Assembly (NCBI GenBank): GCA_019118725.1
Contig: DWYO01000326.1
Location: 1-35,506, forward strand
Direction of reading: 5' to 3'
Length of the DNA stretch: 35,506 nt
Source: Candidatus Parabacteroides intestinavium
GTDB lineage: Bacteria > Bacteroidota > Bacteroidia > Bacteroidales > Tannerellaceae
The notes beneath the pieces were generated by a model. The model saw nothing but the letters and a program-made list of their open reading frames with translations, was not told the DNA's origin and did no database searches. The translations under genes and the position numbers were made by a program. Below are positions 14,310 to 19,136 of this stretch, in pieces. Position 1 is the stretch's first letter. Every line of letters begins with the position of its first letter.

Positions 14310-17300
14310 TTACTTCACTGCAACCTTGAAGCTTTCGCCATCAACCGATACCACTACGATACCAGCCGGAGCAGCGATAGTCTCATTGTCAGAGTTCAGT
14401 ACTTCGTTAGCTACAACCTTACCTAAGATCGTGCTTACTACTACGTTCTTGCCTTCTGCACCCTTAACGATTACAGCACCGTCAGTTGCTACCACTGAAA
14501 CAGCTGTGTTAGCAGAGATTTCTTCGTTTGCGGTAGGTACATAGTTGGTATCTACGTTGTAAACGTCAGCTTGAGAAGCGTATTCGAAATCATCAGCTAC
14601 GATTACCGGAACGCCATTCTGGACTTTCAGCCAGCCGCCTTTAACCATCGGACGTTCGCCACCGGCAAATGCATCGTTATTCTTCCAAGATTCAGATTCA
14701 ATCAAGAAGTTCTGAGCCGGATCATCGTTGATTAAGCGGAATTCGAACTTAGCCGGATTGTGCTTGTTCTCATCGAATGCTACGGTGTCTTCACCGATAA
14801 TCAAGGTCGTATACTGGCCTTCACCCGGCATAGTTCCTTCCGGTTTAACGGCAAAGCCTTTCAAGAATGCCAAACGTGTGTACTTGTTTTCCCACAAGTT
14901 GTTTTCGTTCAGCTTATCATCGATCTTCAAGTTAACCAAGAATTCACCTACCAAAGTATCCGGAATAACTGTAGTATGCGGGCAAGCCAACGAATCAGCC
15001 AATGCTTCGTGTTCTTCACCACACCAGTCAACAGAACCAGCTTTTTCAGTTACATTGCGTGCAATGAAGTACTGTGGCATCAATACACCTTCTTCAGTTG
15101 TCGGAATAACTGTCAATTCAGCTGCTGTACCTGCATTATCACCCTTGCCTTCAACAGCCAAGAAGGTCATGCCTTTCTCTGCCGCACCGGCATACAAGTA
15201 TTCTTTCTCAGTAGAAGAAGTACGATAGAACTTCATATTGTAGTTCTCGCCCAGTTCTTCAGCTGTGAACTCACGATAGTAACGAGTTGTATCAGCAATC
15301 AGAGCAAATGCAGATGTACGGGTTTCGGCTGTGATATCTTCAGCCTTAATCAAACCTGTTGCGTCAACTACACCGGCTTTCTTGTCGCCCTGAACATAAA
15401 CATCTACATATTTGCCATCAACCAATTTTACTTGTTGATCTACTTCTATCAATGCATAGTAGTGTGCATCGTTTGCGTCATTTACTTCTTTCAGATAGAA
15501 GAGAGATGCTGTTTGCGGTTCTGCAACTACCATCATTTCTGTACCACCAACATTGGATACTTGTACAAACTTATTCTTCAATGCAAGTTTATTCGGATCG
15601 TTTACGTTGATAGTATAGATACCACGTTTCAATGTATCTGTACCGTAAGGCAAACCATATTTCTCAATAGCAACACGATTCAGCTCGAACTTAACTGCAT
15701 CACCATTGGTTACTGCTAATACGGTATCGTTAGCAATAGTATTGTCACCAACTGTTACATTCAAATTGCCGCCTACATTCAGGTAGTTCAGTGTAAACAA
15801 TTCACGTACATCTGGTTCAACTGCATAATACCCTAATGTGGTAGATGGTGCAGGTGTTAATGTGTAGTTTTCGAGGATATTTGCTCCTTGATAGTTAAAC
15901 GATACACGAATAACAGTTTCTCCAGCTTCATTTGTAGTTACGGTATAATTGCCGTTATTCAAACGATTACCGGTTTCCTGATTGTAAATATTAGGAATAC
16001 CTCCAAATTCTGTCGGTTTTGTATCAACAACCCACTTAGCTGCTGGCATGTGAGCAAATGCCATTTTAGCAGTGTCGGCCGGAGCAATCAATGTCAAGTC
16101 ACCATCCAGGTCAACCATTAAGCGAGCATTGTTGCGCTGAGAATCTTTCGATGCTTCAACATCCATATAATACAATCCGCTTTCTGCATATTGCGGAGCT
16201 TTATAGGTAATGTTGAATCCGATACGATCGTTGATTGTGTAAAGGTTTGTCCCTTTCAGATTTTCTGAATTACCGATAGTTACATCCCGTTGATTACCTA
16301 AAACGTCTACCTTAACTAAATTGCGCTCGTAACCTGGAACATAAGAAGAACGCCAAGAAATTTCACTATCTGTACGATCTGCCCACCATTTTGTTGTTAC
16401 GTTTTTACGATTGAAACCATCAGCTTCAATGCGCAATGAGTCTTGAGTCGGATAATACAAGAAGCGGAAGTTGAAACGTCCGTTGATATCACGAGCATTC
16501 ATCGGATTGGCTGCATCTTCGAAGTCTTTATCATGTTTAGCCAAAGCGAATGCCAAATTCTGATCTCCTGCATTATCAGTTACATAAGCTGTATCAACCA
16601 TCAAATAGCGTCCGTCTTCTGCTTGCAATGATAACCAATGTGGAGTTTTTTCTTTCTCCAGCTTGTTGCAGAAACGATACCAATTATCATAAATATTGAA
16701 TGTCCAAGCTTCATAACTTCTTGCACGGAGCATTGCATAATAAGCTCTTGTGTTTGCAACTTCTGAGTCAGCTATAGAAACATTAATATCCTCTAATTGG
16801 CCATATAATTCAAGATTTTTATTGGTCAAATCTACAACTTTTGCCAAGTTCTCGTCTTTAACCGCTTCAGCTTTTGCTAATTCTCCTTCCCAATATTCTC
16901 TTTGTTTCTGCAATTCTGCTAAATCAGCAGAATGAGAAGTTTGAACTTTTTGGGCTTCTTTTATTTGGTAATAAATTTGATGAGCCTCATTTAAGAATTC
17001 ATTTGCTTTATTACCGGCATCTTGGGCCTCTGCATCCTTTTCTGTAATAAGATCTGTTTGAGCCTTTATTTCTGCATTGGCGGCAGTTTCAGCATTTTTT
17101 GCTTCTGTTATTTCGTTATATAATGTAGTAATTGCAATGTTGGATGTTGCACCACCATCAAATGAAATAGTTTCAGAACCATGATTTGCTGCACTTAATT
17201 CTTTTAAAAAGTCAATAAGTTTTTGTACATCTTCGTCTGTATAACCCGCAAAAAGAACGTCCATTGAGGCTGCATTTGCGTCATTTTCGAACCATGTAAT

Positions 17301-18638
17301 GAAAGCGTCAACAGAATTGCTGGTTGTTCCATTCCACATCGTTGACATTGCAGATTGAACATCCTTGTCTGTAATCATAGAACGAATGAATCGTTTCTCT
17401 TCCTTAATAGCATTCTGTTTGTCAGCTTCAGTGTTGAGTTCTTTTATTTTCTGCTCGGCCTCTCCTATTTCAATAAACAAATCTTCCATCATTTGCGCAT
17501 AGTGCATATACAGAGCATTTTTCCCCGCATAGTCTTTTTGCAAATTTTCGATTTTTTCCTTATCTTCATCTGAAATGTCAGAATAAGAATTAATCTGTTC
17601 TGTCAAACTTTGAATATGCTGATTATGAGCTGGAATTACTTCAAAAATACTCCAAGAATATTCACTCTTGGCTTCAACTAAATTGGCTTGATTGTCTACG
17701 ATGGCTTGCTCTACCTTGTTTTTTTCTTTGTAGAAATTTCCCACAATTTCATTCTGCGTGTAGAATGCATCTGTTGCAGCAACTTTTCTTTCTTGAGCTT
17801 TATTCCAAGCAGCTTTTGCTTCATCTCTTTGAGCTACTGCATCGTTGTATTCTCCATAAGACAATGTATTCTTACCAACTGGATTAACAGCTCTATATGG
17901 AGTTTCATCCCATAAGTTTGCAGATGTTGTACCTTGTTCGAAAGTCAATTCAAACTTATCGCGCAACTCATCGTTGGTCTGCAACATGCTGTTCAAATCG
18001 TGTCTGTTCAGCCATACCGGACCGGCAACAACCGGTTTAATACGCAAGTCGCTGACTTTGGACTGAACGTCTTTTGTTGCATACTTAACAGCAGCAACTG
18101 AACCGTCAGCCAGCGGTATCATTGTCATAACGGAGTCTGTTGTGATATAGGCTTCCGGAGTTCTTGCGATAGCTAAATTAGAGCCACTCTCACTACGCAT
18201 CCAAGACCAAGCTGCGGCATTACCACCTAAAAGTGAACCGGTGAAATTACCTTTTAAATAATCTTGTGCCTTAGCCGGATCAAAAGACAAAGGCAAATTG
18301 TAAGCTAAGTTTACAAATTTGAACGCTACACCGTTTTCGTTGTTTGACTTAACTTGTTCAACAAACCACAATGATTCGCCTAAATCTGCTTGATAATAAG
18401 GAACTAATTTTAGACGATAATTAGTTACACCTTCGCCAGTCCGGAATTTTTCCATTACCAATACATGGCGACCATCAGACAGCTGATAAGCACGACCATC
18501 AGTTACTTTGTCTACTGTTTCCCAAAAAGCAGGAGCAGATGCTTTACTGACATCTTCAGCCCAAGTCTGAGCAGAAACAGTATTCAATGAACCTGCGAGC
18601 AGGAAGCCCGCACAAAGCGTAAGTACTTTTTTGTTCAT
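14310..18638 (-). CDS. Large DUF6383-type surface (S-layer-like) glycoprotein with coiled-coil insert
   Basis: MNKK signal peptide; C-terminal PTANEEI..VSVVATDGAVIVKGAEGKNVVVSTILG..PAGIVVVSVDGESFKVAVK domain; NLWENKYTRLAF and WLKVQNGVPV family motifs; ten D(S/T)(A/L/V/T) sequons. Confidence 0.85.
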   Translation of the reverse strand: MNKKVLTLCAGFLLAGSLNTVSAQTWAEDVSKASAPAFWETVDKVTDGRAYQLSDGRHVLVMEKFRTGEGVTNYRLKLVPYYQADLGESLWFVEQVKSNNENGVAFKFVNLAYNLPLSFDPAKAQDYLKGNFTGSLLGGNAAAWSWMRSESGSNLAIARTPEAYITTDSVMTMIPLADGSVAAVKYATKDVQSKVSDLRIKPVVAGPVWLNRHDLNSMLQTNDELRDKFELTFEQGTTSANLWDETPYRAVNPVGKNTLSYGEYNDAVAQRDEAKAAWNKAQERKVAATDAFYTQNEIVGNFYKEKNKVEQAIVDNQANLVEAKSEYSWSIFEVIPAHNQHIQSLTEQINSYSDISDEDKEKIENLQKDYAGKNALYMHYAQMMEDLFIEIGEAEQKIKELNTEADKQNAIKEEKRFIRSMITDKDVQSAMSTMWNGTTSNSVDAFITWFENDANAASMDVLFAGYTDEDVQKLIDFLKELSAANHGSETISFDGGATSNIAITTLYNEITEAKNAETAANAEIKAQTDLITEKDAEAQDAGNKANEFLNEAHQIYYQIKEAQKVQTSHSADLAELQKQREYWEGELAKAEAVKDENLAKVVDLTNKNLELYGQLEDINVSIADSEVANTRAYYAMLRARSYEAWTFNIYDNWYRFCNKLEKEKTPHWLSLQAEDGRYLMVDTAYVTDNAGDQNLAFALAKHDKDFEDAANPMNARDINGRFNFRFLYYPTQDSLRIEADGFNRKNVTTKWWADRTDSEISWRSSYVPGYERNLVKVDVLGNQRDVTIGNSENLKGTNLYTINDRIGFNITYKAPQYAESGLYYMDVEASKDSQRNNARLMVDLDGDLTLIAPADTAKMAFAHMPAAKWVVDTKPTEFGGIPNIYNQETGNRLNNGNYTVTTNEAGETVIRVSFNYQGANILENYTLTPAPSTTLGYYAVEPDVRELFTLNYLNVGGNLNVTVGDNTIANDTVLAVTNGDAVKFELNRVAIEKYGLPYGTDTLKRGIYTINVNDPNKLALKNKFVQVSNVGGTEMMVVAEPQTASLFYLKEVNDANDAHYYALIEVDQQVKLVDGKYVDVYVQGDKKAGVVDATGLIKAEDITAETRTSAFALIADTTRYYREFTAEELGENYNMKFYRTSSTEKEYLYAGAAEKGMTFLAVEGKGDNAGTAAELTVIPTTEEGVLMPQYFIARNVTEKAGSVDWCGEEHEALADSLACPHTTVIPDTLVGEFLVNLKIDDKLNENNLWENKYTRLAFLKGFAVKPEGTMPGEGQYTTLIIGEDTVAFDENKHNPAKFEFRLINDDPAQNFLIESESWKNNDAFAGGERPMVKGGWLKVQNGVPVIVADDFEYASQADVYNVDTNYVPTANEEISANTAVSVVATDGAVIVKGAEGKNVVVSTILGKVVANEVLNSDNETIAAPAGIVVVSVDGESFKVAVK

Positions 18639-19022
18639 AACTTGAAAATTTAATTGTTAATAAAATGATAAATAGTTAACTTCTACTTCTACAATCAATT
18701 TCACGAAGAGTTGAAACAACTCCCCGCGCAGTTATGAACAAGCATAAAAAAAACGCGGGCTCATTGTCTATTACTTAACCGGAGGTTCTGGAAAAACCCG
18801 TCAAACAATAATAGAACAAAGCCCGCGCTTGTACGGTATAACACAGTTCACCTATATTTCTATAGGCAACCTCACATAGTCCATACCAAGCGCAAGCATT
18901 TACTGTCCATTATTCCGTTTGACTAAAAATTTTCCAGATTTCCGATCAGGAATAATCTTCGTAAAATGCTTACAATAAATATATAGATTCCCAAAACACG
19001 AAACGCTATTCGTTGCGGAATC
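18631..19022 (-). promoter_or_regulatory. Long structured 5' leader; putative attenuator / translational switch
   Basis: Hairpins at 18986-19022, 18894-18971, 18825-18893 and 18754-18827 plus U8 (18746-18753); complementary loops; 12-bp inverted repeat covering the start codon. Confidence 0.75.
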
Positions 19023-19026
19023 ACTG

Positions 19027-19057
19027 CAAAGGTAAGGAGGAAAAATGAATATGCAAG
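19027..19057 (-). promoter_or_regulatory. Bacteroidetes primary-sigma promoter of the surface-protein gene
   Basis: Minus strand CTTG-N19-TACCTTTG(CA). Confidence 0.75.
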
Positions 19058-19100
19058 AAAAAAGGGATAATTTTTTCCAAATATAGGGGTTTTCTATACG

Positions 19101-19136
19101 AAAGGCATAGATTTGTGGGTCGAAATCTATGCCTTT
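19101..19136 (-). terminator. Intrinsic terminator after the glycosidase gene
   Basis: Perfect 14-bp arms AAAGGCATAGATTT / AAATCTATGCCTTT, 31 bp past the stop. Confidence 0.75.

What the first reader, a model, noticed from the sequence alone, without database searches (positions are those of the whole stretch)
18746..18971. Two-state RNA switch in the leader of the surface-protein gene: twin hairpins with complementary loops
Seen: the promoter (19027-19057) lies ~385 nt upstream of the ATG. On the transcript strand, hairpin H1 (stems 18961-18971/18894-18903 and 18949-18956/18909-18916) has a 32-nt loop UGAUCGGA-aa-UCUGGAAAA-uuuuua-GUCAAAC. Hairpin H3 (CGCGGGCU/AGCCCGCG, 18820-18827/18754-18761, followed by U8) has a 31-nt loop GUUUGAC-gggu-UUUUCCAGA-acc-UCCGGUUA. 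The two loops pair in three blocks of 8, 9 and 7 bp, and both non-Watson-Crick pairs are G-U on this strand only. A middle helix (GCGCUUG/CAAGCGC, 18887-18893/18825-18831) overlaps the 5' arm of H3. Inference: the RNA has two mutually exclusive folds, terminator-like H3 versus a loop-loop antiterminator, i.e. an attenuator with an unknown trigger (antisense RNA, protein or ligand). Established: P. distasonis S-layer glycoprotein genes phase-vary by promoter DNA inversion. No recombinase gene or promoter-flanking repeat is visible here, so this may be an RNA-level alternative. I do not recognise it as a named riboswitch.
Basis: partly seen in the sequence, partly recalled or inferred. Interest (0 to 1): 0.88.

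Follow-up and report, generated by a model that had tools for sequence, protein, structure and literature searches.

The report
Self-antisense twin-hairpin RNA switch, Bacteroidales
In front of a gut bacterium's large surface-protein gene lies one copy of a widespread leader sequence, unlisted in the RNA family catalogue, whose second hairpin is a built-in antisense copy of the first; it is predicted to fold either into a transcription stop signal or into one long rod that lets transcription continue, and it likely does for these genes what flip-able promoters do for their sister genes.

Summary
Observation confirmed. The leader belongs to a multicopy family found in 41 of 47 Parabacteroides-genus genomes and across Bacteroidales, with no Rfam match. 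Each 'loop' is really an internal loop (strands X, Y) capped by a small apical hairpin (Z). Across 186 parsed copies X and Y vary freely (134 and 147 distinct 7-mers), yet both pair with their own partner in 162 copies, against 1.8% of cross pairs. Mismatches are G-U 114, A-C 10, so the pairing is at RNA level. All 191 copies keep 1:2 / 2:3 / 3:4 attenuator logic. Here the terminator and rod folds are predicted isoenergetic (-76.4 / -76.1 kcal/mol). Added here: DUF6383 paralogues lacking this leader mostly carry inverted-repeat-flanked promoters instead (15 of 19 read), and a covarying helix masks the start codon. Best reading: a cis attenuator with a built-in antisense hairpin, decided by a co-transcriptional folding race. 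The trigger is not identified; no transcript data were obtainable. No support for diversifying 'barcodes', a leader peptide, T-box or DNA inversion. The scan noted this family twice before on other DNA (e1-2978093, e1-9598657).

The parts
19027..19057 (-). Bacteroidetes-type promoter: -33 element near 19057-19054, -7 box 19034-19027; start site predicted near 19022
   Evidence: sequence; a -7-like box lies upstream of 98 of 98 close and 82 of 93 distant copies by a loose pattern without chance control; start site not mapped
18986..19022 (-). H0, 5' hairpin with an AG(C/U/A)G-containing loop
   Evidence: predicted fold; loop motif in 86 of 98 close and 21 of 82 distant copies; role unknown
18961..18971 (-). 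strand 1 (anti-antiterminator), 5' arm of the H1 base
18949..18956 (-). H1 lower stem 5' arm (pairs 18916-18909); shares its core sequence with the H3 lower-stem 5' arm, which would allow four-way branch migration
   Evidence: sequence; covariation; branch migration is inference
18941..18948 (-). X, variable internal-loop strand, complementary to X' (18783-18776)
18926..18941 (-). H1 apical hairpin with 7-nt loop Z (18937-18931), complementary to Z'
18917..18923 (-). Y, variable internal-loop strand, complementary to Y' (18806-18800)
18887..18916 (-). H1 3' arm and strand 2 (antiterminator; its tail 18893-18887 is the toehold for strand 3)
18825..18893 (-). H2, middle helix closed by 2:3 pairing; its interior varies in length (H1-to-H3 spacer about 0-126 nt across the family)
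18754..18831 (-). H3: strand 3, lower stem 18819-18807/18775-18764, Y', apical hairpin 18799-18783 with Z', X', strand 4 (18761-18754); a near-antisense copy of H1 that doubles as terminator hairpin
18746..18753 (-). U8 tract of the predicted intrinsic terminator
   Evidence: 6 or more U in 8 nt in 178 of 191 copies
18730..18741 (-). anti-start-codon strand, 12-bp complement of 18642-18631
   Evidence: -13.2 kcal/mol; better than shuffled in 86 of 96 close copies, with compensating changes
18723..18728 (-). strand 5, complement of terminator strand 4; predicted to lock the read-through fold and hide the anti-start strand
   Evidence: (90 of 97 close, 68 of 91 distant copies better than shuffled)
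14310..18638 (-).

Best explanation
The leader likely acts as a cis transcription attenuator whose 3' hairpin is a built-in antisense copy of its 5' hairpin, and the ON/OFF outcome is predicted to be settled by a folding race during transcription. Shown by sequence and covariation: strands pair 1:2 (H1 base), 2:3 (antiterminator) and 3:4 (terminator plus U tract); H1 and H3 are complementary at X, Z and Y; both apical hairpins are conserved although they are unpaired in the rod. Inferred: H1 folds first. As strand 3 emerges it can invade H1 from the 2:3 toehold. Alternatively a folded upper H3 kisses H1 (Z:Z'), forms X:X' and Y:Y', and branch-migrates through the matching lower stems, as in CopA/CopT-type pairing. 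Either route gives the rod (ON). If H1 persists until strand 4 is made, H3 closes and transcription stops near 18746-18750 (OFF). After read-through, strand 5 captures strand 4 and hides the anti-start strand, which would open a temporary window for translation; leaky transcripts that keep H3 would have the start codon masked. The input most likely acts globally on timing or on H1 stability (polymerase pausing, an RNA chaperone or helicase, ions), not through a pathway metabolite. The likely purpose is low, variable or conditional expression of costly or phage-exposed surface genes, in the slot that sister genes fill with an invertible promoter.
For: Own X:X' and Y:Y' both reach at least 6 of 7 pairs in 162 of 186 parsed copies, against 1.8% of 34,410 cross pairs; 134 and 147 distinct 7-mers; G-U 114 vs A-C 10 in own pairs, against 38,783 vs 32,801 in cross pairs. 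1:2, 2:3 and 3:4 duplexes all reach -4 kcal/mol or better in 191 of 191 copies. All H1 and H3 helices covary, apical stems included (alignments fitted to the model). The folds are near-isoenergetic here (-76.4 / -76.1) and in the close set (mean -1.5, sd 4.8). The path estimate gives a low barrier for toehold invasion (1.9 kcal/mol here; 1.5-9.4 in six copies) and a higher one from folded twin hairpins (12.5-36), so timing matters. Downstream genes share no pathway: of 68 scanned, 7 BspA-LRR, 5 ECF sigma, 3 TonB-plug (SusC-like), 2 GLUG, 2 T9SS tail, 2 dynamin-like, 36 without a family. In genome G062, 7 DUF6383 genes carry the leader and 7 of 7 sampled others carry IR-flanked promoters; overall 15 of 19 read (14 by script, 1 by eye), seen in both orientations. 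Only 1 of 95 leader-bearing promoters has an 11-bp flanking IR. Interior loops are required for kissing-to-four-way-junction pairing in plasmid antisense systems (PMC4878617, passages).
Against: No start site, 3' end or expression data: the only RNA run was relatives' contigs. Before strand 4 emerges the rod is 16-28 kcal/mol more stable than the twin hairpins in the six copies tested, and in distant copies the rod stays more stable even with the terminator available (mean +7.7). Naked RNA would then mostly read through, so OFF needs slow refolding or a stabilising factor that I did not identify. At equilibrium the start codon is masked (paired probability 0.99), so the translation window is only a kinetic inference. 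Energy models ignore kissing loops. 9 H1-like hits had no H3 partner. Sharing a slot with invertible promoters is a correlation among selected genes, not proof of phase variation; 4 of 19 had neither device.
Confidence: 0.6

Rival explanations
1. A specific protein or small ligand binds H1, the H0 loop or the docked H1/H3 junction and holds the terminator fold: a riboswitch-like or protein-controlled attenuator.
For: Predicted default is read-through, so OFF needs H1 stabilised. The Z loops fall into a few classes, and the H0 loop motif is kept in 86 of 98 close copies.
Against: Sequence conservation collapses in distant copies, where geometry persists (H0 motif 21 of 82). Regulated genes share no pathway. 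No Rfam match.
Confidence: 0.15
2. Terminated leader RNA acts in trans on nascent leaders of the same gene: its exposed H3 pairs with the new H1 and strand 2, which frees the terminator. OFF would then reinforce OFF, giving gene-specific, heritable ON/OFF states without DNA change.
For: H3 is a ready-made antisense hairpin with interior loops like those of plasmid antisense RNAs. Own duplexes average -29 kcal/mol against -12 for paralogues. The leader alternates with IR-flanked promoters in one gene family.
Against: No selection for orthogonality within genomes (22 of 456 pairs match at both X and Y; permutation mean 21.3, P = 0.61; low power). Intramolecular pairing should outcompete trans pairing. 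Orphan copies in G061 carry damaged Z loops and match no leader seen in that assembly.
Confidence: 0.12
3. Read-through is constitutive and the rod is a processing or stability element (for example a long double-stranded nuclease substrate), or the terminated leader is itself a functional small RNA.
For: The rod is favoured before strand 4 appears and in most distant copies. Strand 5 stabilises the rod after the terminator has been passed.
Against: The terminator base and U tract are conserved and covary. The apical stems matter only in the twin-hairpin state. X and Y are unconstrained, unlike sRNA seeds.
Confidence: 0.08
4. tRNA sensing (T-box-like) or leader-peptide attenuation.
For: Common Z loops resemble anticodon loops (resemblance recalled). 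This copy has a 12-codon uORF starting in the H1 3' arm.
Against: Z varies beyond anticodon-like classes and always covaries with Z'. That uORF start is present in 67 of 98 close but 6 of 93 distant copies. No T-box match. Downstream genes are unrelated to amino-acid supply.
Confidence: 0.03
5. H1 and H3 are DNA inverted repeats for inversion or a single-stranded DNA structure.
For: They form a long imperfect inverted repeat, and an integrative element uses the H1 apex as attachment site.
Against: G-U to A-C bias of 114:10 on the transcribed strand. The apical stems of H1 and H3 are not complementary. The middle segment keeps one orientation in the 57 aligned copies. The promoter lies outside the repeat. 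No recombinase among the 19 window proteins scanned.
Confidence: 0.02

Closest known systems
Antisense-controlled attenuators and kissing pairs of plasmids (pT181 attenuator; R1 CopA/CopT)
   Same: A 5' sensing hairpin with interior loops and the antiterminator at its base; complementary apical loops; kissing that can extend to a four-way junction (PMC4878617, PMC10798244; passages).
   Different: The antisense hairpin lies in the same transcript and is itself the terminator. Pairing is predicted to give ON rather than OFF. The two apical stems are not complementary. It is chromosomal and multicopy, with free X/Y sequences. No separate antisense gene was found.
Classical 1:2 / 2:3 / 3:4 attenuators (trp-type leaders, riboswitch expression platforms, T-box; recalled)
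   Same: Alternative anti-antiterminator, antiterminator and terminator helices before a U tract.
   Different: No conserved leader peptide, aptamer or T-box. It has a whole-hairpin complementarity layer, plus a 4:5 lock and an anti-start helix.
Invertible promoters of Bacteroidales surface genes (P. distasonis S-layer glycoproteins; B. thetaiotaomicron BT1927)
   Same: Same slot upstream of DUF6383 paralogues; likely the same aim of variable surface display (PMC4611039, PMC12632263; passages).
   Different: No flanking repeats or DNA rearrangement; control would be at RNA level and is not shown to be heritable.
UpxY/UpxZ antitermination in Bacteroides capsule loci
   Same: Leader-based antitermination of paralogous surface loci (PMC12632263, passages).
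   Different: That system relies on dedicated NusG-family proteins encoded in the locus; none among the window proteins scanned. Here the specificity is written in RNA pairing.
FopS multicopy sRNAs of Bacteroides
   Same: Multicopy non-coding RNA in Bacteroidales (PMC11697453, passages).
   Different: FopS is a single-stranded conserved seed plus terminator that acts in trans. This element has three hairpins, sits in 5' leaders and has unconstrained recognition strands.

Membership tests
Any Rfam 15 family | covariance-model score at gathering threshold | tested here: not met
   0 hits in the window and in 16 homologous loci; at E<=10, 7 matches far below gathering, best EGFOA-assoc-1 on the opposite strand, 19.8 vs 224.5 bits
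Terminator/antiterminator attenuator | mutually exclusive 1:2, 2:3, 3:4 helices with U tract | tested here: met
   191 of 191 copies; 6 or more U in 178; covariation
Terminator/antiterminator attenuator | regulated premature 3' end in vivo | not testable with these tools
   only contigs of relatives were available
pT181/CopA-type antisense systems | complementary hairpins with interior loops and kissing apical loops | tested here: met
pT181/CopA-type antisense systems | separate antisense RNA transcribed from the opposite strand | tested here: inconclusive
   no opposite-strand -7 box seen by eye between terminator and ATG; the complement lies on the same strand; no strand-specific reads
Leader-peptide attenuator | conserved uORF overlapping strand 1 or 2 | tested here: not met
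   uORF start in 67 of 98 close and 6 of 93 distant copies
T-box leader | T-box model match and amino-acid-related genes | tested here: not met
Metabolite riboswitch | conserved aptamer core and pathway-coherent regulon | tested here: not met
   sequence diverges while geometry persists; unrelated downstream genes
Metabolite riboswitch | direct ligand binding | not testable with these tools
   needs probing
Invertible promoter | inverted repeats flanking the promoter | tested here: not met
   1 of 95 leader-bearing promoters has an 11-bp flanking IR, against 15 of 19 in leader-less paralogues
FopS sRNAs | single-stranded conserved seed plus terminator | tested here: not met
   architecture differs; no Rfam hit

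The most novel reading that the evidence does not exclude
An RNA-only phase-variation device. Each surface gene carries its own sense/antisense hairpin pair, which runs a toehold-driven four-way strand exchange as a molecular timer, and its terminated leader feeds back in trans on new copies of itself. This would give heritable, gene-specific ON/OFF states with no recombinase and no protein, interchangeable with promoter inversion.
Probability: 0.15. Interest if true: 0.95.

Novelty: new variant of a known kind. Interest (0 to 1): 0.78.

Why it matters
It is a large, order-wide regulatory RNA family of gut Bacteroidales with no Rfam entry (up to 29 matches per genome). It sits in front of surface, secreted, ECF-sigma and defence-type genes. 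Its design, an antisense/target pair folded into one transcript with freely exchangeable recognition strands, is one I found no natural precedent for in the searches run. It offers a second route to surface variation beside DNA inversion, testable in one gene family where both devices coexist. It is also a natural library of over 130 near-orthogonal hairpin pairs for RNA switch design.

Tried and rejected
Rfam: nothing. RNA-seq: one RNA metatranscriptome held 0.13 of the words, only contigs of relatives; uninformative. Phage collection BLAST: 2 records with a 24-nt chance match. Diversifying selection on X/Y within genomes: not detected. Orphan copies as trans regulators: in G061, five sit about 0.6-0.8 kb upstream of a leader; several have damaged Z or unmatched halves, and none matched another leader seen, so they are read as decaying duplicates. 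H0-loop pseudoknot with strand 2: no covariation seen by eye. Temperature: predicted fold balance is flat from 20 to 42 C. Leader peptide, T-box and DNA inversion rejected as above. Phylum-wide search: only one weak non-own hit, in the same order and without H3. Literature: ten searches listed no description of this element. Six family motifs were absent from 9 supplementary files of PMC7366714 (one file unreadable; the files may hold no sequences). The 2007 P. distasonis S-layer paper is not held. Supplements of two 2026 bioRxiv ncRNA surveys and of other preprints were not seen and could list this family.

Full report
Observation. The two loops pair in 8, 9 and 7 bp with two G-U pairs, -27.6 kcal/mol; none of 5000 shuffles reaches this. 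The region folds at z = -5.73. The downstream ORF (18638-14310) is 1442 aa with a C-terminal DUF6383; none of the 19 larger window proteins scanned is a recombinase or NusG paralogue. Rfam gives nothing at gathering level in the window or in 16 homologous loci.

Family. BLAST found the leader in 19 of 61 genomes, own included. A pattern scan gave 72 loci, 70 of them titled Parabacteroides. Nearly all close copies with sequence downstream precede proteins with the same N- and C-terminal motifs as this one. An H1 covariance model hit 41 of 47 genomes of the genus and 19 of 103 others of the family, 22 of 150 genomes across the order, and 22 of 101 in the family of a record titled Bacteroides. 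In 150 genomes drawn from the phylum it gave only one weak hit, in the same order. In 100 mostly distant loci, 93 of 113 H1 hits had an independent H3-model hit just downstream; 11 of the rest were opposite-strand echoes and 9 had no partner. After removing duplicates and 2 unparsed copies, 191 elements remained, 98 close and 93 distant. The element also occurs on records filed as plasmids of P. distasonis and B. finegoldii and on 20 IMG/VR contigs.

Anatomy. Each 'loop' is an internal loop with strands X and Y under an apical hairpin with loop Z. Five elements were dropped because the H3 apex was not found. Of the 186 left, 162 pair at 6 or more of 7 positions at both X:X' and Y:Y', against 1.8% of 34,410 cross pairs; some of the 24 misses are parsing slips. 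X' and Y' take 134 and 147 different sequences. Over 185 elements (one chimeric orphan left out), pairs were 2356 Watson-Crick, 114 G-U, 10 A-C and 110 other, while cross pairs show no such bias. The constraint is therefore on the transcribed strand as RNA. All helices of H1 and H3, apical stems included, show two-sided changes above shuffled and slid controls; these alignments were fitted to the models and include opposite-strand rows. The apical stems of H1 and H3 do not pair with each other, so their conservation points to a role for the twin-hairpin state. The lower stems share their core sequence, the condition for four-way branch migration once X:X' and Y:Y' form (sequence; mechanism inferred).

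Switch logic. Duplexes 1:2, 2:3 and 3:4 all reach -4 kcal/mol or better in 191 of 191 copies, and 178 have 6 or more U after the stem. Terminator and rod folds are -76.4 and -76.1 here; the difference averages -1.5 in close copies and +7.7 (rod favoured) in distant ones. Before strand 4 appears the rod is 16-28 kcal/mol better in the six copies tested. The estimated barrier is small for toehold invasion and large from folded twin hairpins. Naked RNA would tend to read through unless refolding is slow or H1 is held. Downstream of the U tract, strand 5 pairs with strand 4 better than shuffled in 90 of 97 close and 68 of 91 distant copies. A strand complementary to the start-codon region does so in 86 of 96 close copies, with compensating changes. 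The nascent ON transcript is predicted to hide that strand in the 4:5 hairpin, while at equilibrium the AUG is masked (0.99), the 4:5 state lying 3.4 kcal/mol higher.

Function. I scanned 68 of 89 downstream ORFs of distant copies (repeats and doubtful ORFs left out). They gave BspA-LRR (7), ECF sigma (5), TonB-plug (3), GLUG (2), T9SS tail (2), dynamin-like (2), scattered others and 36 without a family: no shared pathway. In five genomes only some DUF6383 genes have the leader. I fetched 20 upstream regions of large leader-less paralogues; 19 were read. Fifteen have a promoter flanked by inverted repeats (14 by script, 1 by eye), 2 facing the gene and 13 away, and 4 have neither device. G062 has 7 leader-bearing genes, and 7 of 7 sampled others are IR-flanked. 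Only 1 of 95 leader-bearing promoters has such a repeat. Inversion itself was not observed. That P. distasonis S-layer glycoproteins phase-vary I saw only as cited in PMC4611039 (passage); the original is not held.

Trigger. Not identified. There is no conserved uORF, no T-box or aptamer match, and no predicted temperature shift. X/Y show no avoidance of cross-pairing within genomes (22 of 456; P = 0.61), which fits drift under cis pairing and counts mildly against a trans network. I commit to a co-transcriptional race tuned by global factors (0.6), ahead of a specific binder (0.15), self-feedback in trans (0.12), a processing or sRNA role (0.08), tRNA or peptide sensing (0.03) and DNA inversion (0.02). 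No usable transcript data were found.

Comparison. It works like the pT181 and CopA/CopT sensing hairpins, where interior loops let a kiss progress to a four-way junction (PMC4878617 and PMC10798244, passages), but both partners are in one transcript and the antisense half is the terminator. It is not FopS (PMC11697453, passages) and not UpxY-type (PMC12632263, passages). PMC7366714 (passages and supplement search), 10.1101/2024.11.17.624012 (passages), PMC13733255 (term search with no hits) and two 2026 preprints (passages) did not describe it in what I saw. Ten searches listed no description; unseen supplements may. The scan noted the same family twice on other DNA (e1-2978093, e1-9598657). 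My reading was recorded before I saw those notes, and they are not independent support.

Verdict. A real, order-wide, uncatalogued leader RNA; a new variant of the attenuator kind with an unusual built-in antisense design. Structure is well supported, function is inferred, and the trigger is open. Interest 0.78.

Noticed in passing
G063:C10 (L360 start, L361 end) and G063:C92 (L362): About 89 kb carrying tyrosine-integrase, TraG-like, Mob and Abi genes near its ends is inserted in the H1 apical hairpin of an S-layer-type leader, with the apex duplicated at both ends. An 825-bp contig holds an uninterrupted copy with the same X and Y (excised form or a duplicate). The conserved apex serves as an attachment site.
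   Followed up: partly
L055, L056 (G018:C43, G018:C1 contig ends): Two different leaders are cut at the same base just after Z' by the same foreign sequence, which suggests a second element targeting the H3 apex.
   Followed up: no
G061:C55, C76, C51, C8, C25 (L145, L160, L163, L171, L150): Orphan leader copies with their own promoter and no ORF lie about 0.6-0.8 kb upstream of S-layer-type leaders; some are chimeric, one is H3-only. In the two read in full a palindromic repeat follows the orphan.
   Followed up: partly
L320-L337: Two or three related families of IR-flanked promoters (about 160-210 bp apart) precede leader-less DUF6383 genes; 13 of 15 point away from the gene.
   Followed up: partly
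L340, L345, L349, L351, L245: On mobile or viral contigs near-identical leaders precede different cargo genes, like a swappable expression slot.
   Followed up: no
L144, L244, L202: Tandem leaders with different X/Y/Z in front of one gene; in L202 no second promoter was seen, so possibly two attenuators in series.
   Followed up: no
G000:C171, C302, C16, C275, C69, C190: Other copies in the own genome: one close copy, one before an ECF sigma gene, one before a SusC-like start, one at a contig end, an H3-only remnant sharing X' with the C302 copy, and a promoter-side fragment.
   Followed up: partly
window 19101-19136: Strong hairpin after the upstream GH78 rhamnosidase gene, likely its terminator, which isolates the leader's promoter.
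   Followed up: no
window 19060-19100: AT-rich block upstream of the promoter is conserved among close copies, a possible activator site.
   Followed up: no
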